A DNA stretch of 64,000 nt from positions 1-64,000 of IMG/VR virus record IMGVR_UViG_2974513524_000001; one strand, written 5' to 3'. The DNA comes from a virus. Taxonomy: Duplodnaviria; Caudoviricetes. Made by a program: the position numbers and the translations under genes. Below, piece after piece: positions 4,045-17,712 of this stretch. How positions within the stretch are numbered: position 1 is the stretch's first letter; each line of letters opens with the position of its first letter. The notes below the pieces were generated by a model that was not told where the DNA came from, did not search any database, and saw only the letters and a program-made list of their open reading frames with translations.

Positions 4045-4524
4045 ATGATGCAAATCAAACTGACTGAAGTGGATATCCGTGCAGGTATTGCACTGTATCT
4101 GACCGACCGTGGTATTACCGGCGTCACTGCCGATAACCTGCAAGTCACCTTCACCGCTGGCCGTAAAGGCTCTGGTCTGACCGCTGACGTGGTAACCAAT
4201 CCATCGCAGAATGGTCAGGGCAAAGCTCAAGGCTCAGCACCAGTTCAAGCCAAGGAGAAATCCTCGGCTGACCTGCCTAAGCAATTGGGCGGTACTGCTG
4301 GTGAAACCTCCGGCGTAGCCGGTGCCGACGAAGCTGCCAAGAAATTGGAAGCTGAACGTCAAGAAGCTGATGCCAAAGCTCAACAAGCTGCCAAGGGTAA
4401 CGCCCCTGAAGTAGCTCCTGAGAAGGGCATCGAATCGCCACTGACTGAAGAACAGCCTGCCGCTCCGGTAGCTGAACAGAAGCCACAGGGCGATGCTCCA
4501 GAAGGCGGTAGCCTGTTCAGCTAA
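4045..4524 (+). CDS. Conserved-position hypothetical protein with a long disordered tail ending SLFS
   Basis: ORF with SD; short globular N-terminus followed by an A/E/Q/P-rich tail. Confidence 0.7.
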   Translation: MMQIKLTEVDIRAGIALYLTDRGITGVTADNLQVTFTAGRKGSGLTADVVTNPSQNGQGKAQGSAPVQAKEKSSADLPKQLGGTAGETSGVAGADEAAKKLEAERQEADAKAQQAAKGNAPEVAPEKGIESPLTEEQPAAPVAEQKPQGDAPEGGSLFS

Positions 4525-5119: not shown

Positions 5120-5990
5120 TCAGAGACAACTGAGTTATCAAACCCGTAACAGCTTTGCCTCTTTGGCAACAGTCTGTATCGGAGGTAAGCCTTCTGGTTC
5201 CGTACCCGGCGAACTGTTGTGAGCTGTTCTTTATGCGATGTATTTTGTGAATACTGATTGCTAGTATCCTAAGAGACCAGGTTGTGATGTGAGCCTTTGG
5301 CCGTCATGTGAATAATTCCGGGCAGAGAACGAATCTATGGATCACAACAATCCTCATGCGAAGTGGCTTATAAGCAACGACTGGTAGGTTGGATACCTAC
5401 ATACTGGAAGGCTTCCCTCCGATGCAGAATGATCTGCATCATTCCTTTATTTACTTAAGCAAAAAGAACGTAAAGGATCTCTCTAGAAAATCGAATTAAA
5501 GCGCGGCGTTCTGAGAGTGATACACCCTCAATAGGCTACGAGTTAGTAGCAGAAAAAATGCTTGATACACAATCTAAGCCCGTTCCTCGAAGTCCGGGTA
5601 GTTTGCGTGAGCAAAATAATAGCTAGCGCTATTAGGCATATCGGTGATTCAAAAAGAAATGTTTGTGGCTACGAAAGTAGCAAAACAGGACGAGTTGGTT
5701 AAGAACTTAGTTCTGCGCGTGAACCGGAAACCATGTGAAGTGGTGCTTCACCCGATTTAACCGCCACCGCAAGCTGACCGAAAGGAGGTTTGTAACTAGG
5801 AGGTTATATCGGTGGGTACATAGTAGTTGCTGGTGTAAGTACGGGGTTCGATTCCCTGACTTGTCTCTTTTGGCAGGTAGGCTTTGGTAGCAATTAAGAC
5901 TTAGAACTAGAGGTTCGATTCCTCTCGCTATTATGTCCCCAACCGATGTAACCATCGACTGTCGTTGTAAAAAATACTTCCTATAGGAGC
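5120..5990 (+). ncRNA. Candidate large structured non-coding RNA (class unknown; compare ROOL/GOLLD)
   Basis: ~880 nt without a credible ORF in a gene-dense genome; 26-nt long-range duplex 5173-5198/5403-5428 with G-U pairs; many hairpins with GNRA loops; T-loop motifs. Boundaries approximate. Confidence 0.65.
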
Positions 5991-5996
5991 TACACC

Positions 5997-6593: not shown

Positions 6594-6916
6594 GTAATAC
6601 CCCACAGGGTATGCTCCCAGGCGACGAGTTCTCGCTACCAGACTGGGCGCAAGCTCAGTCGCGCAAGAAGAATGCACTGACTATTCCGGTAGAAGTGCAG
6701 GAAGCGATTGATAATCTGCTTTCAGTATGTGAAACCCACGGTGTACCTGTATTGACAGCTGTAGAAGGCTGTCAGGGTGTAGCCATGGATTCATCACTAG
6801 GCGTAGATCCGTCAATCGTATCTGCTGAAATGCTTATGTCACGTGCCATGCTCAGTAATAATCCTGAACATGTAATGCATGTGGCTATGGCACAGATGCA
6901 GGGTATGAAACCTTAA
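6590..6916 (+). CDS. Hypothetical protein
   Basis: GTGA overlap with the upstream stop. Confidence 0.7.
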   Translation: MSNTPQGMLPGDEFSLPDWAQAQSRKKNALTIPVEVQEAIDNLLSVCETHGVPVLTAVEGCQGVAMDSSLGVDPSIVSAEMLMSRAMLSNNPEHVMHVAMAQMQGMKP

Positions 6917-6928
6917 CCAAGGAACCGC

Positions 6929-7165
6929 ATGAAGAACGCCCTATGGGTGCTAGCCTGCATTTCTGTTGTCGTAGGAGTAATCCTCGCGATAGTCACAGTA
7001 TGGTTTGCCGTAGGACTTATTCTAAGGATCATCGGTTTCTTTGTAGCCATTATTGGCTTCATATTAATCGTTGCATTCGTAGTCTGGAGTTGGTGGACCG
7101 AATGTGTGGTTGAGCCGTACCTGCTGAAGCGTAAGCTAAAGCAGCAAAAGAATAAGCCCCAGTAA
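6929..7165 (+). CDS. Small membrane protein (two hydrophobic segments, basic tail)
   Basis: Hydrophobic sequence; SD AAGGA. Confidence 0.7.
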   Translation: MKNALWVLACISVVVGVILAIVTVWFAVGLILRIIGFFVAIIGFILIVAFVVWSWWTECVVEPYLLKRKLKQQKNKPQ

Positions 7166-7180
7166 TGGGGCTTGTTTTAT
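7151..7180 (+). terminator. Intrinsic terminator
   Basis: AATAAGCCCCA-GTAA-TGGGGCTTGTT followed by TTATT. Confidence 0.7.
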
Positions 7181-7184
7181 TAGT

Positions 7185-7261
7185 AGGTCATTAGCTCAAC
7201 AGGATAGAGCAGCTGCCTTCTAAGCGGACGTACACGGGTTCGAGTCCCGTATGACCTGCCA
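7185..7261 (+). tRNA. tRNA-Arg(UCU)
   Basis: Acceptor AGGTCAT/ATGACCT, D arm GCTC..GAGC, anticodon loop CT-TCT-AA, T arm ACGGG-TTCGAGT-CCCGT, encoded CCA. Confidence 0.9.
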
Positions 7262-7375
7262 TATCTATAACGAAGTCAGTCTGGCTGATGAGGTGAGAAT
7301 TAGAGACTCTTTCCGCAGCGTTTCAGGGGGTGGCCAGTAACACGGACAACCTAACAGACTGACCCCGTATAGATA
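7262..7375 (+). ncRNA. Candidate ~115-nt structured RNA between tRNAs
   Basis: Nested stems TATCTATA/TATAGATA, GTCAGTCTG/CAGACTGAC, AGGT/ACCT, TCCG/CGGA. Confidence 0.5.
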
Positions 7376-7382
7376 CATACAT

Positions 7383-7453
7383 GCCCAAAGTAGCTCAGAT
7401 GGTAGAGCACTCTTAGCCGAGAAGGTCAGTGGTTCGAATCCACTCTGAGGGCA
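7383..7453 (+). tRNA. Atypical tRNA-like element with a shrunken anticodon arm (no assignable anticodon)
   Basis: Canonical D arm TAGCTCAGATGGTAGAGCA and T arm AGTGG-TTCGAAT-CCACT; anticodon region only CTC-TTAGCC-GAG; acceptor has two mismatches; no CCA. Confidence 0.6.
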
Positions 7454-7461
7454 CTTATTAT

Positions 7462-7597
7462 GGGTGGTTTAGCTCAGTTGGTAGAGCACTAGAGCCAAAA
7501 AAGATCGTTTCTACGTAAGTAGACCCTAACGGGGGCAAAGCCAACGATCCGATCTTTGAGAGCCAGAGGTCGCCGGTTCAAGTCCGGCAACCACCCA
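7462..7597 (+). ncRNA. tRNA-like RNA with a structured insertion replacing the anticodon loop
   Basis: Perfect 8-bp acceptor GGGTGGTT/AACCACCC, canonical D and T arms, ~78 nt between D arm and variable loop containing a four-way junction. Confidence 0.75.
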
Positions 7598-7602
7598 ACC
7601 TT

Positions 7603-10600
7603 TTACAGGAATTTGAATACTGGCAACTCGTCCAGAGTGCCGAAGTATCCAAATGCCCCGTCTTGCAGTGGATTACGACCCAACCGGTTAGTCCAGCTGG
7701 AGTTAATCACCGAAGACATACCGTTGGTGTATGCATCAATGGCAATTGCACCCAGTACACGTGCTGGTTTTTCCTTAACCAGTCGCATGATGGTTTTCTG
7801 AATGCGCATGTAGTACTTGGTGAACATCACGATACCCATGTCGTTCAGATACTGGATCGAACGGTGCGAAGGCAAGTCATAGTTCACAAAGCTTTCCTCA
7901 GCCTGACGCAGAGCATCTGCTTGGCTTAGAGGGTTACGTGCACGATTCATAGTGTGCTGATACATAGCATAACGAGCAATCAAGTCAGACAGCTGTGTAG
8001 TCTGGCTCAAGAACTTGTAGGTGCTAGTATCGTGAGTCATATACACCTGCTTACCAGCTTCTTTCAGAAGCTTAGGTACGCGAGAGGTGTACTTACTCAC
8101 ACCACGTTGCAAGCGAGACTTATAGCTGTATTGGCTGTCGTCTGCTTCCACATCTTCAACGATAGTTGGCATCAAGCCAGCATCTACCAGAGGCTTAATC
8201 GGGTTACGCGCCAAGCGATCCTTGATCTGAGCCAGTTCAGCTTCCAAAGCTGGCTGACCTTCTGGAATGTAACCAATCTCGATTGCTTGTTCGATCTGCA
8301 TTTCCCGTTTACGGTCTTTGCGATAGTCCAACGCCCCTTTAAGTGCTACTGCGTGAGAGTTAATCATCTCTTTCGGAGATACACCCTCGATACCCAGCAA
8401 AGACAGGTTAGAAACGATGTTACCTACCAAGGTAGTCACGTTCTTCACAACCAGAATGTCTTTCATCTCTTTTACCAGCTCTTGCATAACGTCTTCGGCT
8501 TGACCGACACGCAGTGCAGCCTTATCCCCAAGAAGGCTACGAGTAACCATCACAAACAATTGTTCTGCCCAGTTACGATCACCATCGCCAGCACGAGACT
8601 TCAAGTCACGTTCAGGTTTAGCAAAAGCTTCAGTCAGACTGTATTTGCGATAGCCCATGATCATGTTCAGCTGATCTGCTGGAATCATCATGTTATCCGA
8701 CTTCCAAATACGCTTAATGTCGCGTTTGGTAGATTCAGGCAACAGACGATACAGCTCAGCAATCTCAGGATCTTTACTGTCCTTACCTACCTGCAAGTAG
8801 CTGCTAGGACGGTTATTGTAGTCGGCACGATACTGGTCATACATGGCACCTACCACATCAGCGTTTTGCTGTGCGGAGGCTACCTTGTCTACGATCTGAC
8901 CAGCAAATGTACCTAGCACCTGCTCCATGGCGTTCTCACGATCCAGCAGAGTATCCCGGTTGTTCTCGGTCATCATGTATCGGTAATCAGCAATGCGACC
9001 ATCTGGAGCAAGCACAGGCACCATCTTGCCAGCTTCTTGATTACGAGGATCGTAGCTGAGATCACGATTAAGCAAGGCATCAATCAAAGGCTGTTTAGCC
9101 TTACGGATCATGCTCTTATGCTGAGCCGAGGTTACTTGGTTTCCGTTGAGCAGGTTCACGCTGGCACGGTCAGGGCTAGAACCTTTACGGTGATAGCCAG
9201 TGTAAGAAAGTGCACCAGTGAGCAAGCCAGATTGGCCAGAGCCACGACGGGTAACCATTACACGGTCATCCTTCGTTTGGTCTGTCGAATCTTTTTGCAG
9301 CTCAGTCGCTAAACGGTAACCAGCTTTCTCAAATTTATCCAAGTCAGCACGAGCCACCAACATCACTTCGATGTTGTTGTCGTGGATTTCAGGTACATAG
9401 CCGGACTGTTGCAGAGCCTCTTGGCCTTTGAACAGATCGGTGGTGGACTTCTTCTGCAAGCCAGAATGCAACTTGAGAATCATGTCGATACCGTTCTGAC
9501 CATTGCCACGATTAGCTTCGGTGCGGAATGCCTGCATAGCTAGTGCTTTGTCATAAGTACCGGTGTAGCTGTGTGCATATACAGCCAGCAGTTGATCCAG
9601 CAGAGGTACAAGCTGTTTCACATTGGTTTGAGTACCTGCTTTCTTGGTGCCGTACATCTCAGCAATGTTGCGAGTGTTCAGCATCAAGTTGTGGGACACG
9701 TTGCCACCTACCACTTTGTGGTAAGCCAGATCTTTAGTCGCAGCGGTCAGGTAACCAAAGTCAGGGCTCATTGCCTGTACTTGTGCTTCCAGATCTTTGC
9801 GATGCTTGGTCATTTCAGCAGGACTTTCCATAAGCTCTTTCAGGCGGTCGATACCTACGGCATCTGCCAGTGCGCTCATGTTGGTACGCAAGAATACCCG
9901 TGTAATAGAGTCTTTAGTCTCTTTGTTCAGGTATTCCCCGCCATCCTTAAACGAAGCCATGACCTGTGCAACAGTGTTTTCGATGTGATCTTTACGATCC
10001 TTCTCGATAGCCTTTGCACCTTTGAACAGTGCGTCAGCAATACGGTTGCCATCATGCAGACCACGCATCTCAGTGATGGCCCCCATGATCACGCCATGCT
10101 TGTCTTTGAATGCACGGTCACGCAATACAGTGGTGTGATCCAAGATCGCACCTACACGGTCACCTGCCAAGGCAGAGATACCGGCACCTGCTACACGTAC
10201 ATAGGCAGAGCTGTTCTGTTTGAAGAATGGAATCTTGCCAAATGCCTCAGCGCGTTCACGAACATTGTCCGCTACGCTGCCGATAGCCATCTCAACCTGA
10301 TCCATACCGGACAGCTTGTTACGCAGCATTTCATCCTTGTGCTTGGCTTCAATGTCTACCAGCTGATCCAGCAGGGTAGCCAGTGCAAAGTCAGCACGAG
10401 TGTTAGGCGATACCTTGGTATGCAAGGAAGCCAGTTTAGTCATCACTCGACGGAACAGTTCTACCAGACGACCAGCAATTGGCAGTGAAGCCAATGGCAC
10501 AGTGGCGTCAGAGGTACGGAAAGTGAGGATGTTCTTCACTTCTTCACTTGCGATACCCATTGCAGCGAACTGGGTTACGTTGCTGTTTTTAAACAAGAAT

Positions 10601-13600
10601 TCATGCTTCTGCTGAGCAATATCCTTCTCAGTAGGAGTAGCAGTTGCCCAATCACCTTTATGGAAGTTCTCTGGCTTAAGAGCCTTACGACCATCGTTGA
10701 ACAGGTTGGTCAAAGCTTGACGCACGAACACAGTGTTCGGGTTAGTCATAGCTGCTTCCAAGCTAGCCTGTACCGATTCCAATACGAACCCTTCTTGCTG
10801 ATTCACATTGAATGGCGAGGCCAGTGCACGCGAAGCAAATGGCTTAGTGCCTGTGTCCAAGGACTTCAGGTAAACATCCATTGGAGTGATAGCACGATTC
10901 GCAGCAGCTTCTTCTTTGAAGGCGCCATAAGGCCCGTAGAGAGGTTCTACCAAGTTGGTCATAACATCTTTCAGATGTGCTTGGTGCGCCTCACTGGCGA
11001 TACGTGGAGAGGCTCCTTCCAGTGCTGTTACCACTTCTTGTGCAGTCATTGCATTGATGTGATCTACAGCATCTTCATAGGCCAAAGTCTTGGCATCACG
11101 AGTCTTACGCAGATCAGCAGCAGCTTTAAACAAGCCAGCTGACTGAGCTACCAGCATACCCAAGCCAGTTTCATTAGCCTTGGTGTTGCTACCACGGAAC
11201 AACATACGAGCCAGCGAATCAACGAAGGCACGCATACCGGACCAAAGACCTTTGGCACGGCTTTGAATCTGAATGTTAGCCAGTACTTCTTGTTGGAACC
11301 CTTGGTTGGTCAAACCCCAAGCCAGCAGTTCATGTACGTTGCCTACTGCATTCTGGTATTTACCAGACAGGGAGCCATTGGCTTCCATCAGTTCAGCAGC
11401 TTTCAATCGCAGAGCTTCCAGATCGGCTACAGCCTGACCTACCGGATTGTTCTTGCCAGTATTTTCATCTACCAAACCAGCCAGAGCAGCATGGACCAAT
11501 TCATGGGTCAGCATCTCAGGAGTGATACCCGACTCTACAAAGTCAGGGGATTTGACGTAGATAGCAGCAGCACCGGCTTCTTGGTGATACCAGCCACGTG
11601 CCTTACTCACACCAGTACCCAATGCACCATCAGGGGCAGTGTCTGGAGTGATGTAGTTCACTGGCATGCTTGGCTTAACTGTACGTTTGATCATCTCCAG
11701 CAATTTGCCAGTGAATGGATCAGCATTCAGTGCAGCAAGCGAATCAACCAGTTCAGCAGCAGTCAGCTTGTTGGTAGCCAATACGTTGACCAGATCAACA
11801 TTCGACTGCACCAGTGGAGTACCAACCTCACCCCAAACACTGAGTTTGCGAGTGTTGTCATTCACTTGATTTACCAGTTCAGCAGCTTGATGCTCAGGCA
11901 ATACTGCTTTAGCAGCTTCCAACGTAACGTTGTTAGTCAGCATTGCTTCACGTACAGCTTGTACTTCTGGAGTTTGTTCCAGACGATCAAGAGTGTTTAG
12001 CGTGGTAGCAGGGCTGAGAGTTTCAACAGAGTTACGGCTCAATGCCTTAGCAGCAGCAGCTTTTAGATCAAGTGGCTGAGCTTTAGTCAGTTGATCGATG
12101 TTAGCAGCAGATTGCTCAGCAGCACTGTCGAAGTTTTCACCAATCGAATCCAGCTGTTTCAGGGCAGCAGTACGGTCTGCATCGGTAACGATGTAGGAAC
12201 CACCTTCTGTTGCGTACTGACCTACAGCCTGCATCGAAGCCAGCATGTTCAGCTTCTCGGTATCAGCTGCACGAGCAGTGTCACGAATAGCGGTCAGCTG
12301 TTCTTCAAAGGTGCCCAGCTTCTTCTGTGCCATTTCATTGGCCAGAGTCTTCAGCTTAGGTTGGATACGGGCAGCCAACTCAGGATCTTGCATCAGGTTG
12401 TCCAAGCCAGCCAACACGCGTTCCAGAGTCGAAACCATCTCAGCTGGTGCCGAGTAGTTCAGCATGTTATCGAAGGTGGCTTTGTTCAGCTTCTGGCCAA
12501 CTTCTTGTGCTTGGTGCAGGTTTACACCCAAGGCATCGTGCACGTTCAATGCATTCATTTCACCGTATACCGACGAAGCAATCGACGAGTCAGTCGAGTG
12601 AATCGAGGTAATGAACGGTGCTACACCTGGGTCAGTAGCCTTGGTACGCAGACCATTTACCGAAGTGGTTGCACGATTAACTACAGAACCATCTTCTTGG
12701 TAGGTAGGCACTGCATCACCGAAGTAAGCCTGAGAGGTGAATGGGTCGGTACGATCCAGTTCACGTTTCGACTTGCTCATGTTCATACCAGCGGCCAATT
12801 GGTCACTTTGCTTGGACATTGCAGTTTGCAAGATAGGCTGCATATCGGTCAGACGATCATTGATCGCTTTGACCTCAGCAGTACTCAACGAGCTGAGAGC
12901 AGTTTGCTTACCAGTCTTACCGGTACGACGTGCAATGCTAGTCGAGGTTTCCTCAGCTTGTTCAGTCAGAGCTGTGTAAGCAGCATCGTACAGACGGAAA
13001 GCCAGTTGAGCAGTCTTATTCACAGTGTCACGACGAGCGATGAACAGACCGTAGTTGTCTTTCAGCGAGTCTTCTACTTTGCTACCCAGCATCTCATGGA
13101 ATGTAGCTTTGATTGCGTCCACTTGACCTTGAGTCAGGTTGGTTTGCATTGCTACATCGATACCCATGTTCGCATCAAGGTGCAAACCTTTGAAGCGAGT
13201 CAGAGTGTTCACAGCGTTCAGCAGAGTACGCATTGCCTCAGGATCTTTAGCCTTGGCAGCATCTTCCATTTTCGAGTAGATGGATTCAATGAAACCATCT
13301 GCCATGCCCTGTACAGCAGTAAGGGTGTTCGAACCGAACATCATTGCAGTCAGTGGCTTTTTGATGACATTACGACCTTTCGAAGATACAGCGCCTTCTT
13401 CTGTCAGCAACTGGCCAGTAACTACCTGCAAAGCGTTAAGCAAAGCTGGGTCAGTACCATCCAGACGCTTAAGAGCATCAGACACAGTAGATTCATAGAG
13501 GTCATGGTTACCCATGCCTTTGTAGTCGTTGAACTGGATCAGTTCATTGCCATTGGCATCCAACGCACCCTGCGGAATGAAACCACCTTGGGTCATTACG

Positions 13601-16600
13601 TCGAAGCCTTTAGCACCCAGCATCATCAGGGACAGCATTGGACCGTTAGTCAAACCATCCACTTCTGCCATCAGAGTGGTGTTGAACTTACCGTCTTGTG
13701 CGTTCTGCATATGAGCCAGAGATACCAGAGCATCCAGCGAATGCATGTTCTCGCCAGCTTCTGCTACACCAGCAACGATTACATCTTCGTTAGGGTTGGT
13801 TGCTTCACCACGCAGGATTGTAGCCAGCTCGTTTACAGCAGCTTGGATACCCGGAGTGTTGACCTTAGCATCGTACGCAGGTAGCACCAGTGCAGTGGAC
13901 TTGGCTTCAGTTTTCACACCGAAGGCTTCCAGTACACGCAGCTTGAAGTTGTTGAATTGAACTGGATCATTGATATCTACAGACGACTCCCAACCTTCCA
14001 TAGCCAGCATATGGCGATGAACCTTGGAGGTCTGTGGGTTGATCACGTTAGTGTTCAGACCTACACGCTGTGGCATCCATACAGAGCGACCGAAGTACAG
14101 AGGTTGCTCAATACCTTCAGTGGTTGGGTCATTAGTCATCTTCTCTACGAAGGACTTGAAGTTATCCACCTGATCAATCAAGCCAGCATTCTTGGCATCA
14201 CGCGAAGCCAGGTTATATGCATGGGTTGGGTTGTCAGTAGTGTCGATAACACCAGCAATCTTGTAGAGAGCATCAGACGACAGAACACCAGCAATCTGGT
14301 TCATATCCTGACGTACGAAGTGCTTTTTAGAGCCTTCTTTGTCCAGAATCTTAGCCAGAGTGGATGGAATCTCACGGTTGGTACGCTTAGCGTAAGCCTG
14401 ATCGAATTTCACTGGTTCATAGCTTGGCTCTTTGCCAGCAGCTTCTACAGAGAACAGTTTGTTTACAACAGACTGCGAGCCAGTAGTGGCTTCGCGAATC
14501 TTACGTACAACCTCGTTGGCTACATCACGGTCATTCACTTTCTCACTGGCTACAGTGACGAAGGTGTGTACTGCATTGGAGACAGCAGGATCTTGAGTGT
14601 TCATCAGACGTTGCATGGTTGCATCGCTGATCTCAGTACGCTTGATTAGGCCAGCACGGGCCATTGCACCAATGGCTTGAATGCCAAGTGCAGTTTCCAG
14701 TCGCGCAGTGTCAGACGCCGACGCTTCTGGCTTAGCTCGCAGGCCAAGGGCTTGTGCAATGCGTGCACCAAGTTGGTTGGCAACAACGTCTTCACGTGTA
14801 CCAATCCGACCAAGAGTGCGGTAGGCATCAGGGGATACTTCATCATCAATGTCTCGGTTCAGGATCATATTGATCCCGGCATCAGTGTTGTAGAGGTTCC
14901 CAGCATTTTCGCTCAGCCACGAGAACATGCCGTAGCTGATAGCAGTACGGGCGTTTTCGTCTACCGAACCATCCTCATTAATGAGGTACTGGGCGTAGTC
15001 TTGGAAACGGAACTCAGGGCTACGACGACGAGTGAAACCAGCAACTACGTGCTTATCTACCAGTCGAGCGAAGCCAAAGAAGTTATTGATAGCTGCACGT
15101 TGAGGGCCAGCAATCTCACCTTTCTGAGCCAGGAAGTCTTGCACACGTACTTCACCAGCACGAAGTTTGGAAGCGAAGTTAGGCACCGAAACCAATGGTT
15201 TATTGGATGCGTCCAGCTCCGATCCAGCGTTCTGAGTGAACAACTCACCTACAAGGTTTACTTGTTGACGATTTTCAGCAGTAACAGCTTCACCAGTTGA
15301 TTGCTTAACAGCAGTCAGCTCACCAGTTTCATTTACAACTGGCGCTGGTTCTTCGGTTGTTTGTTGTTCTGCGTTAGGTACAGCAGTGTCAACCCGCTGA
15401 TCATCACTGACAGCAGTATCAGTAGGAACGGTAGTAGTTTCAGCATCTGTAGTCTCTTGTACCGGAGCAGCCTGTACTTCTGGCAGCTTAGGAGCAGCAG
15501 TAACCATGGCTTGGAATGCATTGGCATTCTTGGTCAGCACGTCAGCTTCAGCAGCTACGTCAGCAGCCAAGCGGAAAGAGGTTGGACCTACCATCAGGCC
15601 ACCAGCTTTACGAGTGTCAGCCGGACCCATATCAGTCTGTACCCAGTTCCCAGTGGAATCAGGTGCAATGCTGATTTGGTTGTTAGTGCCTTTCACTTGT
15701 TCGTAAGCTTGTGCCAAAGCAGTAGCTTTACTCACACGACTGGTAGCAAAGCTATTCAGGGAATCAACCTGAGCTTGTGCAGCTTCGGTATTGCCATCAG
15801 TGATGGCCATGCGAATAGCGTTACGGTACTGCTCCAAGCCTTTGAAGCCAGAACCACCGTTGATCACATCCGAACGTACACCTGCCCGACCTTTAAAAGC
15901 ATCAGTAGCTTCTTGAGCTTCACTGAACGAAGCCATTGCTTGGCGTTGCTCAGTAGACAAGCTTTCATTACCTGCCATGGCTTGAGCCATCTCAGTAGTG
16001 ATAGCGTCCGGGTTGGTCATTGTCAGGGTAAGTACACGGTCAGCAGCTTGTACATCACCAGTGTTGGCTTGCTCTACGAGCGAGTCCACATCAGGAGTGC
16101 TATCCGTAAACAGACGCTGCGAAGCTTCCTGTACAGAATCCAGTTGGTTTTGCAGTTGGAACGCTGTGGCTTCATCAGCTTTACGTTTAGCTGGGGTGTA
16201 AGCCTCTGCTGCTTTGATAGCATCAGCTACTGCTTTCTTATCAGAAGCAGTACCGTTGTTATCTTCAAGCCATTGAGCAGTCTCACGAAGATCAGCTACG
16301 CCTTCCTCAGAGTACATTTCCATACGTGCTTGTACGTTGGACAAGTCACTGTTCAAGTCTTTGTAGATCTGATCTGCTTTAGCAGTGTTAGCGTCTACAG
16401 TGGCTTGGTCAGCATCTTTACTCAGCTCACCCAGAGCTTGTACAGCCCGAGTTGGATCAACCCGAGCAAGATCGCTGATATCGCCAGAAGCAACGGACTG
16501 TTGGAAAAGGTCTTCCACATTTTGGTTAGCCTCAATTTTTTCAGCGGCAGAGTTTGCAGTGCCAGCCGCACGCGAACCACCAGCAGCAGCCAATTGGAAG

Positions 16601-17712
16601 TTGCCACCAACCAGTGCACCAATAGTTGCGCCCTCCACGATTTCCTCAATCGTAGGTTCTTCAAGTTTTGCACGAGCTTCTGCATAGGTCTGGTAACCCT
16701 CAGTTACGCCTTCGCGTGTACCTGCACCAGCAACCGATGCAGCACCTGCTCCAATACCTTTGCCAGAGTTCTTGAACCCTTTGATAAGGGATACGTCACC
16801 AACCATCTCAGCAGCAGCTGCGGATGCGGCAAACAAGCCCATCTCAGCACGCTCAGATTCGTTAGGAAGTTGACCTTCATTCTTGTCTGCGTATTCAGTG
16901 ATACCTTCACGGTAGGCATCGAAGCCATAACCAGCATTGGTTGCAGTGAGTGCAGCAGGGTTGTACATGGCTGCAACGATCTGAGGTACGTTTTCTACAA
17001 CGTATTCAGTAACAGCGCCTGGGTCTTGTGCACCAGTGCTGATTGCACTGCCGATAGTACGGAATAAACCAGCAGCACCATCTTTAGCAGCATCTGTGTA
17101 CTCACCTTTATCGAACGATTCCTTGGCGTCACGAATTTGCTGAACACTGTCAGCAGTTTCATTACGCAGGTCATCAGACAGGCGATCACGTCGAGTAGTA
17201 TCGACAATCCCGGAGATATCAAAGAAGTCAGCGACTTTCTTACCTACTTGCTGCAAGCCAGTAGAGCCTTGCAGACGTTCACGGTAAGTCTGTGGAATAC
17301 CGTCATCAAGAGGTGCAGTTTGATCCAACAGTGCATCATCACCCGGCTGAACTTCACCAGTGAGAGAACGGTTATATGCTTGGATTTGAGCTTCTGGCAC
17401 AGTGCCTTGAGCCATGCCAGCAATCAGGTCAATTGGCAGAGTAGCCACGTTACCTACAGTACGGCTAGCACCAGACAACAGAGAAGCGCCAAGGTTAATG
17501 CCCTGAGCAGCAGTATCTTCTGCGTCAAGGCCCATCTTACCAATCCAGGCATCTTGCACATTGCGCTCTTTACGAGCCTGCAAGGTAGCCATATCGGCAA
17601 GCTTGATCTCGGCTACATCAGCAAAAAGGGGGCGGTACTCTGTAGCACCAACCCCCTGAGCTTCTTGCACCGGGTCAAGGATGGAAGTGTAACCATTTCC
17701 AGTCTTGGCCAC
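7603..17712 (-). CDS. Virion-encapsidated RNA polymerase, N4 gp50-like (vRNAP)
   Basis: 3369 aa; T7-like motifs A (EVDGLTNGP), B (RNVIKKPLTAMMFGS) and C (NVHDA); no Cys seen on reading; hallmark of Schitoviridae. Confidence 0.97.
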   Translation of the reverse strand: MAKTGNGYTSILDPVQEAQGVGATEYRPLFADVAEIKLADMATLQARKERNVQDAWIGKMGLDAEDTAAQGINLGASLLSGASRTVGNVATLPIDLIAGMAQGTVPEAQIQAYNRSLTGEVQPGDDALLDQTAPLDDGIPQTYRERLQGSTGLQQVGKKVADFFDISGIVDTTRRDRLSDDLRNETADSVQQIRDAKESFDKGEYTDAAKDGAAGLFRTIGSAISTGAQDPGAVTEYVVENVPQIVAAMYNPAALTATNAGYGFDAYREGITEYADKNEGQLPNESERAEMGLFAASAAAAEMVGDVSLIKGFKNSGKGIGAGAASVAGAGTREGVTEGYQTYAEARAKLEEPTIEEIVEGATIGALVGGNFQLAAAGGSRAAGTANSAAEKIEANQNVEDLFQQSVASGDISDLARVDPTRAVQALGELSKDADQATVDANTAKADQIYKDLNSDLSNVQARMEMYSEEGVADLRETAQWLEDNNGTASDKKAVADAIKAAEAYTPAKRKADEATAFQLQNQLDSVQEASQRLFTDSTPDVDSLVEQANTGDVQAADRVLTLTMTNPDAITTEMAQAMAGNESLSTEQRQAMASFSEAQEATDAFKGRAGVRSDVINGGSGFKGLEQYRNAIRMAITDGNTEAAQAQVDSLNSFATSRVSKATALAQAYEQVKGTNNQISIAPDSTGNWVQTDMGPADTRKAGGLMVGPTSFRLAADVAAEADVLTKNANAFQAMVTAAPKLPEVQAAPVQETTDAETTTVPTDTAVSDDQRVDTAVPNAEQQTTEEPAPVVNETGELTAVKQSTGEAVTAENRQQVNLVGELFTQNAGSELDASNKPLVSVPNFASKLRAGEVRVQDFLAQKGEIAGPQRAAINNFFGFARLVDKHVVAGFTRRRSPEFRFQDYAQYLINEDGSVDENARTAISYGMFSWLSENAGNLYNTDAGINMILNRDIDDEVSPDAYRTLGRIGTREDVVANQLGARIAQALGLRAKPEASASDTARLETALGIQAIGAMARAGLIKRTEISDATMQRLMNTQDPAVSNAVHTFVTVASEKVNDRDVANEVVRKIREATTGSQSVVNKLFSVEAAGKEPSYEPVKFDQAYAKRTNREIPSTLAKILDKEGSKKHFVRQDMNQIAGVLSSDALYKIAGVIDTTDNPTHAYNLASRDAKNAGLIDQVDNFKSFVEKMTNDPTTEGIEQPLYFGRSVWMPQRVGLNTNVINPQTSKVHRHMLAMEGWESSVDINDPVQFNNFKLRVLEAFGVKTEAKSTALVLPAYDAKVNTPGIQAAVNELATILRGEATNPNEDVIVAGVAEAGENMHSLDALVSLAHMQNAQDGKFNTTLMAEVDGLTNGPMLSLMMLGAKGFDVMTQGGFIPQGALDANGNELIQFNDYKGMGNHDLYESTVSDALKRLDGTDPALLNALQVVTGQLLTEEGAVSSKGRNVIKKPLTAMMFGSNTLTAVQGMADGFIESIYSKMEDAAKAKDPEAMRTLLNAVNTLTRFKGLHLDANMGIDVAMQTNLTQGQVDAIKATFHEMLGSKVEDSLKDNYGLFIARRDTVNKTAQLAFRLYDAAYTALTEQAEETSTSIARRTGKTGKQTALSSLSTAEVKAINDRLTDMQPILQTAMSKQSDQLAAGMNMSKSKRELDRTDPFTSQAYFGDAVPTYQEDGSVVNRATTSVNGLRTKATDPGVAPFITSIHSTDSSIASSVYGEMNALNVHDALGVNLHQAQEVGQKLNKATFDNMLNYSAPAEMVSTLERVLAGLDNLMQDPELAARIQPKLKTLANEMAQKKLGTFEEQLTAIRDTARAADTEKLNMLASMQAVGQYATEGGSYIVTDADRTAALKQLDSIGENFDSAAEQSAANIDQLTKAQPLDLKAAAAKALSRNSVETLSPATTLNTLDRLEQTPEVQAVREAMLTNNVTLEAAKAVLPEHQAAELVNQVNDNTRKLSVWGEVGTPLVQSNVDLVNVLATNKLTAAELVDSLAALNADPFTGKLLEMIKRTVKPSMPVNYITPDTAPDGALGTGVSKARGWYHQEAGAAAIYVKSPDFVESGITPEMLTHELVHAALAGLVDENTGKNNPVGQAVADLEALRLKAAELMEANGSLSGKYQNAVGNVHELLAWGLTNQGFQQEVLANIQIQSRAKGLWSGMRAFVDSLARMLFRGSNTKANETGLGMLVAQSAGLFKAAADLRKTRDAKTLAYEDAVDHINAMTAQEVVTALEGASPRIASEAHQAHLKDVMTNLVEPLYGPYGAFKEEAAANRAITPMDVYLKSLDTGTKPFASRALASPFNVNQQEGFVLESVQASLEAAMTNPNTVFVRQALTNLFNDGRKALKPENFHKGDWATATPTEKDIAQQKHEFLFKNSNVTQFAAMGIASEEVKNILTFRTSDATVPLASLPIAGRLVELFRRVMTKLASLHTKVSPNTRADFALATLLDQLVDIEAKHKDEMLRNKLSGMDQVEMAIGSVADNVRERAEAFGKIPFFKQNSSAYVRVAGAGISALAGDRVGAILDHTTVLRDRAFKDKHGVIMGAITEMRGLHDGNRIADALFKGAKAIEKDRKDHIENTVAQVMASFKDGGEYLNKETKDSITRVFLRTNMSALADAVGIDRLKELMESPAEMTKHRKDLEAQVQAMSPDFGYLTAATKDLAYHKVVGGNVSHNLMLNTRNIAEMYGTKKAGTQTNVKQLVPLLDQLLAVYAHSYTGTYDKALAMQAFRTEANRGNGQNGIDMILKLHSGLQKKSTTDLFKGQEALQQSGYVPEIHDNNIEVMLVARADLDKFEKAGYRLATELQKDSTDQTKDDRVMVTRRGSGQSGLLTGALSYTGYHRKGSSPDRASVNLLNGNQVTSAQHKSMIRKAKQPLIDALLNRDLSYDPRNQEAGKMVPVLAPDGRIADYRYMMTENNRDTLLDRENAMEQVLGTFAGQIVDKVASAQQNADVVGAMYDQYRADYNNRPSSYLQVGKDSKDPEIAELYRLLPESTKRDIKRIWKSDNMMIPADQLNMIMGYRKYSLTEAFAKPERDLKSRAGDGDRNWAEQLFVMVTRSLLGDKAALRVGQAEDVMQELVKEMKDILVVKNVTTLVGNIVSNLSLLGIEGVSPKEMINSHAVALKGALDYRKDRKREMQIEQAIEIGYIPEGQPALEAELAQIKDRLARNPIKPLVDAGLMPTIVEDVEADDSQYSYKSRLQRGVSKYTSRVPKLLKEAGKQVYMTHDTSTYKFLSQTTQLSDLIARYAMYQHTMNRARNPLSQADALRQAEESFVNYDLPSHRSIQYLNDMGIVMFTKYYMRIQKTIMRLVKEKPARVLGAIAIDAYTNGMSSVINSSWTNRLGRNPLQDGAFGYFGTLDELPVFKFL

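What the first reader, a model, noticed from the sequence alone, without database searches (positions are those of the whole stretch)
7462..7597. tRNA scaffold whose anticodon loop is replaced by a perfect four-way junction
Seen: a perfect 8-bp acceptor, canonical D arm and canonical T arm (GCCGG-TTCAAGT-CCGGC), but ~78 nt lie where a 17-nt anticodon arm belongs. Inside, GATCGTT/AACGATC (7503/7543) closes three abutting hairpins TCTAC-GTAA-GTAGA, CCC-TAAC-GGG and GGC-AAA-GCC with no unpaired junction bases. A tandem CGATC copy allows an alternative AAAGATCG/CGATCTTT register. There is no anticodon and no encoded CCA, and the insert is too short for a group I intron. Known: an extra G-C pair atop the acceptor is typical of bacterial tRNA-His, and the body loosely resembles it. 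Inference: a natural tRNA-scaffolded RNA, for example a decoy or inhibitor of anticodon nucleases or other tRNA-sensing defences, or a carrier for an aptamer domain. Intact arms argue against simple decay.
Basis: partly seen in the sequence, partly recalled or inferred. Interest (0 to 1): 0.85.

Follow-up and report, generated by a model that had tools for sequence, protein, structure and literature searches.

The report
Conserved tRNA body carrying RNA module
This phage gene is a complete tRNA body whose anticodon arm is replaced by a conserved folded RNA module, one member of a small undescribed family shared by very different phages, so it is probably a tRNA-shaped small RNA that does not decode codons.

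Summary
Window 7462-7597 is a tRNA body (Rfam tRNA 48.4 bits) with 78 nt where the 17-nt anticodon arm belongs.

The insert is not unique. The same gene with the same module occurs in Escherichia phage Jgk1, a 341-kb phage contig, and ~100-kb enterobacterial phage-like plasmids. PGAP labels the plasmid copies 'tRNA-OTHER'.

- **Structure is selected.** Two of the three hairpins and a closing helix keep pairing through compensatory changes.
It is AAAGATCG/CGATCTTT, not the gapless junction.
- **Origin.** In sister plasmids the same scaffold at the same locus is an ordinary tRNA-Thr(TGT).
- **Not a restorable intron.** No single excision restores an anticodon arm in 0 of 8 members. The same test restores 31 of 49 other insert-bearing phage tRNAs and 23 of 980 shuffles.
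- **ARAGORN's 'tRNA-Arg with intron' is worthless.** 914 of 1000 shuffled inserts also get a call.

Best reading (0.55): a non-decoding, tRNA-scaffolded structured RNA. What the module does is untested. This scan has noted other interrupted or non-decoding phage tRNAs before, but not this module.

The parts
7462..7597 (+). whole tRNA-like gene (tRNA body plus module)
   Evidence: Rfam tRNA 48.4 bits at 7463-7596. Family model R1 scores 124.8 bits at 7462-7596.
7462..7469 (+). acceptor stem 5' strand, including the extra base -1 (G7462)
   Evidence: Pairs with 7589-7596. 5 of 8 pairs show changes on both sides across relatives.
7472..7487 (+). D arm: GCTC, AGTTGGTA, GAGC
   Evidence: The stem is invariant in 8 of 8 sequences.
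7489..7499 (+). 5' linker CTAGAGCCAAA. The core AGAGCC...AAA is invariant in the family. It repeats the D-stem 3' strand (AGAGC).
   Evidence: Alignment A4. RNAalifold offers an alternative D pairing with it.
7500..7507 (+). closing helix 5' strand in the covariation-supported register (AAAGATCG)
   Evidence: Pairs with 7550-7557. 96.5% of cells are paired, with one pair seen as C-G in 6 and G-C in 2 sequences. RNAalifold chose this register independently.
7503..7509 (+).
   Evidence: Pairs with 7543-7549. The outer pair fails in 6 of 8 sequences and the rest never vary.
7510..7523 (+). hairpin 1: TCTAC-GTAA-GTAGA
   Evidence: The stem is invariant. The loop is GTAA here and TTCG in the 7 other sequences.
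7524..7533 (+). hairpin 2: CCC-TAAC-GGG
   Evidence: Relatives have CAGC-NNN-GCTG at this place, a different sequence that still forms a hairpin.
7534..7542 (+). hairpin 3: GGC-AAA-GCC
   Evidence: Relatives have GTC-(A)AAY-GAC. The middle pair changes on both sides.
7543..7549 (+). AACGATC: 3' strand of the gapless register, or an unpaired junction strand in the other register
   Evidence: AACGA is invariant in 8 of 8 sequences.
7550..7557 (+). closing helix 3' strand (CGATCTTT)
7558..7566 (+). 3' linker GAGAGCCAG. GCCAG is invariant.
   Evidence: With 7489-7493 it forms only 3 of 5 standard pairs.
7567..7571 (+). variable loop AGGTC
   Evidence: Invariant in 8 of 8 sequences.
7572..7588 (+). 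T arm: GCCGG-TTCAAGT-CCGGC
   Evidence: 3 of 5 stem pairs change on both sides across relatives.
7589..7596 (+). acceptor 3' strand plus C73
7384..7452 (+). neighbouring tRNA-like gene A. It has the same D-arm type and only 13 nt in the anticodon-arm position. In phage 98PfluR60PP the same scaffold holds a different ~52-nt insert.
   Evidence: Rfam tRNA 37.6 bits. Alignment with L001.
7185..7261 (+). ordinary tRNA-Arg(TCT) heading the cluster
   Evidence: ARAGORN. Rfam 58.2 bits.

Best explanation
The gene encodes a non-decoding, tRNA-derived small RNA. A full tRNA core (acceptor, D arm, variable loop, T arm) is kept. The anticodon arm is replaced by a conserved module of about 75-78 nt. The module has purine-rich linkers, a closing helix and three short hairpins.

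I propose that the tRNA core makes the transcript a substrate for the cell's tRNA-maturation enzymes: RNase P at the 5' end, and trimming plus CCA addition at the 3' end. That would give it tRNA-like stability, as in the engineered 'tRNA scaffold'. The module, displayed where the anticodon would be, would be the working part. It most likely binds a host or phage factor.

The gene arose from, and in plasmids is allelic with, a phage tRNA-Thr(TGT)-type gene. It spreads among phage tRNA clusters, probably by recombination through the conserved tRNA segments.

**Shown:** the family, its structure and covariation, the allelism, and that it cannot be restored to a tRNA by one excision.
**Inferred:** processing, stability, binding and any benefit to the phage.
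For: 1. **Real tRNA core.** Rfam tRNA scores 48.4 bits. The G18-G19 pair of the D loop, the T loop and the AGGTC variable loop are kept in 8 of 8 sequences.
2. **The module is a family.** It occurs in phage Jgk1 (L137), in IMG/VR loci L139-L145 and in enterobacterial plasmids. Model R1 scores members 124.8-160 bits. It scores 56 bits or less on every other hit in 98 further loci totalling 887 kb.
3. **RNA-level selection.** On alignment A4, 98.3% of cells pair, against 89.8% in shuffles (0 of 500 reach it). 10 pairs change on both sides. Slid controls give 29-45% paired. RNAalifold independently finds the same hairpins and closing helix.
4. **No anticodon arm.** In 0 of 8 members does any single excision give a 5-bp stem, U33, R37 and a 4-5 nt variable loop. 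The same test passes 31 of 49 other insert-bearing phage tRNA scaffolds and 23 of 980 shuffles.
5. **Allelism.** The same scaffold at the same place, after tRNA-Asn, is tRNA-Thr(tgt) in L147 and L150.
6. **Setting.** It always lies in a tRNA cluster.
7. **RNA libraries.** Contigs of two RNA libraries from one study span the whole module-bearing gene unspliced. The only joint found carries the 18 nt of the plain tRNA-Thr allele, so it is a different allele and not splicing.
8. **Engineered precedent.** tRNA scaffolds with the anticodon stem-loop turned into an insertion site are recognised by E. coli cellular factors and protect the inserted RNA (PMC3753655, passages read).
Against: - No direct evidence of a discrete RNA, of its ends, of CCA addition or of any partner.
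- The RNA-library contigs may derive from DNA or from long precursors, and contigs cannot show ends.
- The family rests on four lineages only. Five of the 8 rows are one plasmid group, so cell counts overstate the number of independent events.
- Hairpin 1 and most of both closing registers never vary, so they are untested.
- The linkers form no standard helix, so how the module stacks on the tRNA core is unknown.
- The module allele is rare: 6 of 5426 complete E. coli genomes, and 11 of 1237 matching plasmid records cover at least 80% of the query. Rarity fits a neutral or selfish element as well as a useful one.
- The discriminator base and acceptor identity differ among members, so no common charging identity is apparent.
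Confidence: 0.55

Rival explanations
1. It is an interrupted, still functional tRNA. The module is a short protein-dependent intron that is cut out and the halves religated, like the 'enigmatic' short introns of other phage tRNAs.
For: - Short inserts in phage tRNA genes are common, and most behave as introns: 31 of 49 are restorable, many of them by an insert after position 28 or 29 of the anticodon stem.
- Lak megaphage tRNAs carry conserved introns of unknown splicing route (bioRxiv 10.1101/356790, passages read).
- The locus is allelic with tRNA-Thr(TGT).
- In all 8 members the 7 nt before the invariant GCCAG read N-T-N-N-N-R-R, a loop-like pattern. The strings are TTTGAGA, GTGTGAG, ATGTTAG, ATGTTAA and ATCTGAG.
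Against: - No 5' strand exists to pair with GCCAG. No excision gives a 5-bp stem in any of 8 members.
- The loop-like bases are the 3' strand of the covarying closing helix. That explains the conserved T without invoking U33.
- The would-be anticodon would differ (TGA, GTG, GTT, CTG) among otherwise homologous scaffolds.
- ARAGORN's 'tRNA-Arg(ccg), intron 52' also appears for 914 of 1000 shuffled inserts, and its loop is absent from relatives.
- No spliced joint was seen in RNA-library contigs.
- No Rfam intron or ribozyme family matched at E<=1.
Confidence: 0.15
2. It is a selfish or neutral DNA cassette. In this reading a small mobile or recombination-spread insertion has knocked out tRNA genes, and the RNA itself has no role.
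For: - In the window the insert has a 7-nt direct repeat, AGAGCCA at 7491-7497 and at 7559-7565. It also has inverted ends, AAAGATCG and CGATCTTT.
- Distribution is patchy across unrelated phages, and frequency in E. coli plasmids is low.
- tRNA genes in these clusters do recombine. The Moo19 'tRNA-Ile' joins the 5' part of a tRNA-Ile to the T arm and acceptor 3' strand of the Jgk1-type gene. Its acceptor strands do not pair, and ARAGORN does not call it.
Against: - Compensatory changes inside the module, in hairpins 2 and 3 and in closing-helix pair 42-95, indicate selection on RNA pairing.
- There is one copy per genome.
- No true copy turned up in one genome each of 185,579 species (one search gave 1 hit, a chance match in an A+T-rich stretch).
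- The direct repeat is imperfect in relatives (AGAGCCA against GAGGCCA or TAGGCCA).
- No transposase or nuclease gene was found to travel with it, but this was not searched for systematically.
Confidence: 0.2
3. It is a decaying pseudo-tRNA with a chance insertion.
For: - Neighbouring tRNA-like gene A has two acceptor mismatches and a 13-nt stump in place of the anticodon arm.
- The cluster turns over fast between two phages that are 96% identical.
Against: - All stems of this gene are perfect.
- The same module is kept in Pseudomonas and Escherichia N4-like phages, a 341-kb phage contig and plasmids, with compensated stems.
Confidence: 0.05

Closest known systems
Engineered 'tRNA scaffold' for recombinant RNA (Ponchon and Dardel; PMC3753655, passages read)
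   Same: The acceptor stem, T arm and D arm are kept. The anticodon stem-loop is turned into an insertion site for a foreign structured RNA. The chimera is recognised by E. coli factors and protected.
   Different: That construct is man-made, and its insert is joined through a designed continuous helix. This one is natural and conserved. It is joined through invariant linkers that do not form standard pairs, and its processing is not shown.
'Enigmatic' short introns in phage tRNA genes (Lak megaphages; bioRxiv 10.1101/356790, passages read), and the insert-bearing tRNAs I found in IMG/VR
   Same: A short structured insert in the anticodon region of a phage tRNA gene, too small for group I. tRNA-Thr(TGT) is among the hosts.
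   Different: Removing most of those inserts restores a perfect anticodon arm (31 of 49). Removing this one does not (0 of 8). The module shares no sequence with them; model R1 gives them 56 bits or less. Table S6 of the Lak paper, which holds the intron sequences, could not be seen.
Stable RNAs of unknown function in the phage T4 tRNA cluster (species 1 and 2, RNA C and D)
   Same: Small non-tRNA stable RNAs encoded among phage tRNA genes and matured with them. This is recalled, not checked: my search found no paper in the held library.
tRNA-mimicking non-coding RNAs: tmRNA tRNA-like domain and bacterial Y RNA-like YrlA (Rfam RF00023, RF02553)
   Same: A tRNA-like module is fused to another functional RNA domain.
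   Different: YrlA scores 21.1 bits against a gathering score of 69, and that match spans two adjacent genes. ARAGORN finds no tmRNA. There is no tag reading frame, and a complete D arm is present.
Phage P1-type trnT, tRNA-Thr(UGU), downstream of trnA (Asn). The gene names come from earlier notes of this scan.
   Same: Identical acceptor strands (GCCGGTT and AACCGGC) plus ACCA. The T arm is the same or differs by one base. It holds the same position after tRNA-Asn as the plasmid members of this family.
   Different: P1-type trnT has a normal 17-nt anticodon arm. The family has the module instead.

Membership tests
tRNA (Rfam RF00005) | Acceptor stem, D arm and T arm with a T-loop, scoring above the gathering threshold | tested here: met
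   48.4 bits against a gathering score of 29, model positions 1-71.
tRNA (functional, decoding) | A 5-bp anticodon stem with a 7-nt loop (U33, purine 37), either present or restorable by removing one intron | tested here: not met
   Default ARAGORN makes no call. No single excision restores it in 0 of 8 family members. The test is calibrated: 31 of 49 other insert-bearing scaffolds pass, against 23 of 980 shuffles.
Group I intron in a tRNA anticodon loop | A catalytic core (P3-P9), usually more than 200 nt, detectable with Rfam Intron_gpI | tested here: not met
   The insert is 61-78 nt. No Rfam family other than tRNA, and two weak chance-level hits, appear at E<=1 in 7000-7800.
Archaeal or eukaryal endonuclease-type tRNA intron | Excision at a bulge-helix-bulge restores a canonical anticodon arm | tested here: not met
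   No excision restores the arm. The bulge-helix-bulge motif itself was not modelled.
Small self-cleaving ribozymes (hammerhead, twister, twister-sister, pistol, hatchet, hairpin) | A match to the curated covariance model | tested here: not met
   No such family appears at E<=1 in the permissive Rfam scan of 7000-7800.
MITE-like mobile insertion | Terminal inverted repeats plus a target-site duplication | tested here: inconclusive
   The window has inverted ends of 8 bp and a 7-nt direct repeat. In relatives the repeat is imperfect. The 'inverted repeat' is the covarying RNA helix.
MITE-like mobile insertion | Multiple dispersed copies in a genome | tested here: not met
   One copy in the 74,895-nt record. 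One place per genome in 6 of 6 E. coli genomes that hold it.
tmRNA or YrlA tRNA mimics | A match to the family model; for tmRNA, a tag reading frame | tested here: not met
   ARAGORN finds no tmRNA. YrlA scores 21.1 bits against 69.
Natural tRNA-scaffolded RNA (working class proposed here) | Made as a discrete stable RNA with tRNA-type processed ends | not testable with these tools
   Only contigs from RNA libraries were available. They span relatives of the gene unspliced but cannot show ends, and they may include DNA.

The most novel reading that the evidence does not exclude
Phages keep and exchange a set of 'anticodon-arm cassettes'. These are structured RNA modules slotted into tRNA bodies by recombination through the universal D-arm and T-arm sequences. 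They would yield stable tRNA-scaffolded effector RNAs. On this reading, this module is an effector that captures or blocks a conserved host factor which inspects the anticodon end of tRNAs, for example a tRNA-directed defence nuclease. Its two competing closing registers would act as a conformational switch.
Probability: 0.15. Interest if true: 0.85.

Novelty: new variant of a known kind. Interest (0 to 1): 0.6.

Why it matters
Phage tRNA clusters are usually read as codon-usage helpers or as spares against tRNA-cutting defences. This gene shows a third kind of content. It is a tRNA body that has given up decoding yet keeps a sequence-conserved, structurally compensated module. It is shared by N4-like phages of Pseudomonas and Escherichia, a 341-kb phage contig and enterobacterial phage-like plasmids.

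It is a natural counterpart of the laboratory tRNA scaffold. Members sit in E. coli plasmids and in an E. coli phage, so expression, processing, partners and phenotype are all directly testable in standard strains.

It also gives annotators a way to resolve some 'tRNA-OTHER' calls. The calibrated excision test separates intron-like inserts from non-restorable inserts in phage tRNAs.

Tried and rejected
- **ARAGORN with introns allowed** calls 'tRNA-Arg(ccg), 52-nt intron, 13-nt variable loop'. Rejected: 914 of 1000 shuffled inserts also get a call, and the proposed loop TCCGAT is absent from relatives.
- **tRNA-His identity.** The G-1:C73 pair is not conserved. The -1:73 column reads U-A in 5 sequences, A-U in 1, G-C in 1 and unpaired in 1.
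- **Close relatives of the phage.** The vRNAP C-terminus found 11 IMG/VR loci and 5 metagenome loci. None carries this gene. Their cluster holds ordinary tRNAs or nothing.
- **An exact 47-nt core of the insert** has 0 hits in IMG/VR.
- **blastn of the 91-nt insert region alone** against the phage collection found no match at E<=1. The Jgk1 relative surfaced only with the 601-nt query.
- **Flank-only pattern AGAGCCAAA...GCCAGAGGTC.** It gave 14 stretches: 7 known members and 7 matches without tRNA features. Model R1 gave none of those 7 a match at E<=1.
- **Genome contigs pattern scan.** One hit, a chance match in an A+T-rich stretch without tRNA features.
- **RNA evidence.** RNA runs held only small shares (0.07-0.21) of the sampled words. 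The four I laid are contigs, so depth, ends and absence of a spliced form carry little weight.
- **Single-sequence MFE folds** of the eight members disagree with one another, so I did not use them to choose a register.
- **Literature.** Searches for phage tRNA introns or interrupted tRNA genes, for tRNA-like RNAs of N4-like phages and for T4 stable RNAs found no description of this module. The library lacks most subscription journals, and supplements were closed.
- **No sigma-70-like promoter** on the + strand in 6800-7800, so how the cluster is transcribed is open.

Full report
**What is there**

The window is most of a 74,895-nt IMG/VR virus record. It is an N4-like Pseudomonas phage. A 3369-aa ORF on the minus strand (7603-17712) is 98.8% identical over its last 400 residues to the virion RNA polymerase of Pseudomonas phage 98PfluR60PP, genus Littlefixvirus.

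A cluster of RNA genes on the plus strand converges on the end of that ORF:
- tRNA-Arg(TCT), 7185-7261;
- a structured spacer, 7262-7383;
- a tRNA-like gene A, 7384-7452;
- the finding, 7462-7597.

Rfam's tRNA model matches 7463-7596 at 48.4 bits, skipping 70 nt in the anticodon arm. The RNA folds far better than shuffles: -57.5 kcal/mol, z = -5.86, 0 of 200.

**Is it an intron-bearing tRNA?**

I kept the tRNA body and shuffled the 83-nt middle. ARAGORN still made a call in 914 of 1000 cases, so that call is no evidence.

I then enumerated every single excision that leaves a 17-nt arm and a 4-14-nt variable region. None gives a 5-bp stem with U33 and a purine at 37, in the window or in any of its 7 relatives.

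The test has power. I scanned IMG/VR for a common D-arm motif followed 60-90 nt later by a T-arm motif. Among 129 candidate pairings, 74 had at least 6 of 7 acceptor pairs and 4 of 5 T-stem pairs. Of 49 distinct inserts with perfect acceptor and T stems, 31 are restored to a canonical arm by one excision, against 23 of 980 shuffled inserts. Most of these inserts sit after position 28 or 29 and share a hairpin followed by an ACAGCAA-like motif. So short intron-like inserts are common in phage tRNAs, and this gene is not of that kind.

**It is a family**

The nearest cultured phage, 98PfluR60PP (96% identical around the cluster), lacks this gene. It has another odd tRNA-like gene at that place. 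It also carries a different ~52-nt insert in the scaffold of gene A. Eleven IMG/VR relatives and five metagenome relatives of the phage lack it too.

The 601-nt blastn query, however, hit Escherichia phage Jgk1 at 74% identity across the insert. Motif scans built from the two sequences then found:
- L139, L140, L142 and L143, which are identical to each other;
- L141, on a 341-kb contig;
- L144 and L145.

The L139 type is 100% identical to a ~103-kb Escherichia albertii plasmid. Related copies lie on non-mobilizable E. coli and Salmonella plasmids of 106-115 kb. IMG/VR also lists such sequences as viral. Calling them SSU5- or P1-like phage-plasmids is my recollection, not a test.

PGAP labels the E. 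coli copies 'tRNA-OTHER'. They occur in 6 of 5426 complete E. coli genomes, always once and always on a plasmid. One genome each of 185,579 species gave only a chance hit.

A covariance model of the eight sequences scores members 124.8-160 bits. It scores nothing above 56 bits in 887 kb of other phage loci rich in tRNAs and insert-bearing tRNAs.

**Structure**

In all members the order is the same:
- tRNA 5' half;
- C-N-AGAGCC-AAA;
- (G/C)ATCGTT;
- hairpin 1, TCTAC-loop-GTAGA, with loop GTAA in the window and TTCG elsewhere;
- hairpin 2, CCC/GGG in the window and CAGC/GCTG elsewhere;
- hairpin 3, GGC/GCC in the window and GTC/GAC elsewhere;
- AACGA-Y;
- CG(A/G)T(C/G);
- a few bases;
- GCCAG-AGGTC;
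- T arm and acceptor.

Those pairs never vary, and the outermost pair fails in 6 of 8 sequences.

The other register pairs (G/C)ATCG with the distal CGAT(C/G). It is 96.5% paired and has a compensatory pair, C-G in 6 sequences and G-C in 2. It also shows G-U/A-U and U-A/U-G variation. RNAalifold chose it without guidance.

Both 3' strands are conserved as a tandem pair. A hybrid or switching arrangement therefore cannot be excluded.

For the whole structure, 98.3% of cells pair (shuffles 89.8%, 0 of 500 reach it). Ten pairs change on both sides. Sliding the partners by 1-3 columns drops pairing to 29-45%.

Two cautions apply. Five of the eight rows are one plasmid lineage, so there are four lineages, not eight events. 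MAFFT also misplaces the window's hairpins 2 and 3 by one or two columns, so their covariation is read from the sequences directly.

The two linkers, CTAGA... and ...GCCAG, make only 3 of 5 standard pairs in the window and are invariant in the family. I cannot explain this. The 5' linker also repeats the D-stem 3' strand, which gives an alternative D pairing.

**Origin**

In plasmids L147 and L150 the same scaffold sits at the same place, directly after tRNA-Asn(GTT). It has the same acceptor strands and ACCA end, and a T arm that is the same or differs by one base. There it is an ordinary tRNA-Thr(TGT). In L148 and L149, and in the viral loci L139, L144 and L145, the 17-nt arm is replaced by the module. 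L148 and L150 share near-identical upstream flanks, so the two forms are alleles.

The Shigella phage Moo19 gene annotated 'tRNA-Ile' joins the 5' part of a tRNA-Ile to the T arm and acceptor 3' strand of the Jgk1-type gene. Its acceptor strands do not pair, and ARAGORN does not call it. tRNA genes in these clusters therefore recombine through their shared segments. That offers a route for the module to spread. It also means that covariation in the acceptor and T stems could partly reflect different recipient tRNAs. The compensations inside the module cannot be explained that way.

**Expression**

For a plasmid-type relative (L145), two metatranscriptome runs of one study contain contigs that span the whole gene with the module. 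One is a 147-nt contig covering 4522-4654. Two runs, X2 and X4, from different studies, show a joint that skips 75 nt. It carries 18 other letters, which are the anticodon arm of the plain tRNA-Thr allele. That is another allele, not splicing. Contigs cannot show RNA ends, and the libraries may hold DNA. This is only a weak hint that the unspliced form exists as RNA.

**Reading**

The best-supported account is a non-decoding tRNA-derived RNA. Its tRNA core serves as a handle for maturation and stability, as in the engineered tRNA scaffold (PMC3753655, passages read). The conserved module is the functional part.

What the module binds or does is unknown. A role against tRNA-directed host factors is attractive, but nothing here tests it.

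The rivals are:
- a protein-dependent intron, 0.15;
- a selfish or neutral cassette, 0.2;
- decay, 0.05.

**Novelty**

I found no Rfam family for it. My searches found no paper describing it. The library is incomplete and supplements were closed. In particular, Table S6 of the Lak megaphage paper, with the Lak intron sequences, could not be compared.

Earlier notes of this scan describe other short inserts in phage tRNAs, and a non-decoding coliphage tRNA-like gene, on other DNA. They also describe the P1-type Asn-Thr tRNA pair. None describes this module.

Noticed in passing
window 7262-7383 (+); also L001 1762-1884, L130 about 4095-4200, L131 3570-3695 (-): A conserved structured RNA lies between tRNA-Arg and tRNA-like gene A. 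It has a long outer stem and inner hairpins around the invariant GGCTGATGAGG...CCGCAGCGTTTC. RNAalifold finds 27 pairs, 6 of them with compensatory changes among 4 sequences. No Rfam match appears at E<=1. In L131 it does not lie next to the polymerase gene end.
   Followed up: partly
window 7384-7452 (+) and L001 1884-1993: tRNA-like gene A has a tRNA body with two acceptor mismatches and only 13 nt in the anticodon-arm position. In phage 98PfluR60PP the identical scaffold instead holds a ~52-nt insert with a GTAA-capped hairpin. This is a second scaffold with exchangeable content.
   Followed up: partly
L001 1669-1760 and 1999-2085 (Pseudomonas phage 98PfluR60PP): The sister phage has two further odd tRNA-like genes that the window lacks. 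One has acceptor and T arms, an encoded CCA and a non-tRNA body. The other has a 6-bp stem and a 13-nt loop in the anticodon position. Neither is called by ARAGORN or by Rfam at gathering score.
   Followed up: no
window 5150-5995: About 850 nt have no long ORF but hold T-arm-like motifs followed by acceptor-like strands. At 5811-5865 there is a weak match to the tRNA-like mascRNA model (18.4 bits, E 0.95). A second GGTTCGATTCC motif lies near 5910-5925. Relatives L009 and L013 carry an RNA of about 131 nt, closed by acceptor and T arms, in the same kind of region.
   Followed up: no
L137 193-318 (Escherichia phage Jgk1): A match to the permuted-tmRNA model scores 34.7 bits, below the gathering score of 47. 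The aligned stretch ends in GCUGCUUAA, the kind of ending a tmRNA tag reading frame has. I did not translate it. A T-arm-like motif lies about 140 nt downstream. It may be a phage-borne tmRNA-like gene.
   Followed up: no
L138 1263-1335 (Shigella virus Moo19): The annotated 'tRNA-Ile' is a chimera with non-pairing acceptor strands (TGCTTCA against AACGGAC). About 1.1 kb of RNA genes present in Jgk1 is missing between its two halves. ARAGORN does not call it.
   Followed up: partly
IMG/VR loci L015-L129, for example L032, L036, L050: A recurrent class of inserts of about 45-50 nt occurs in phage tRNA genes, placed after position 28 or 29 of the anticodon stem. Each is a hairpin followed by an ACAGCAA-like motif. 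Removing the insert restores a perfect anticodon arm. 31 of 49 distinct inserts carry such a motif, and 31 of 49 are restorable. I did not check whether these are the same 31.
   Followed up: partly
L048 1926-2062 (+): A tRNA scaffold has a normal anticodon arm whose loop reads ATTTAGA. That gives anticodon TTA, which would read the stop codon UAA. It also has a variable region of about 60 nt.
   Followed up: no
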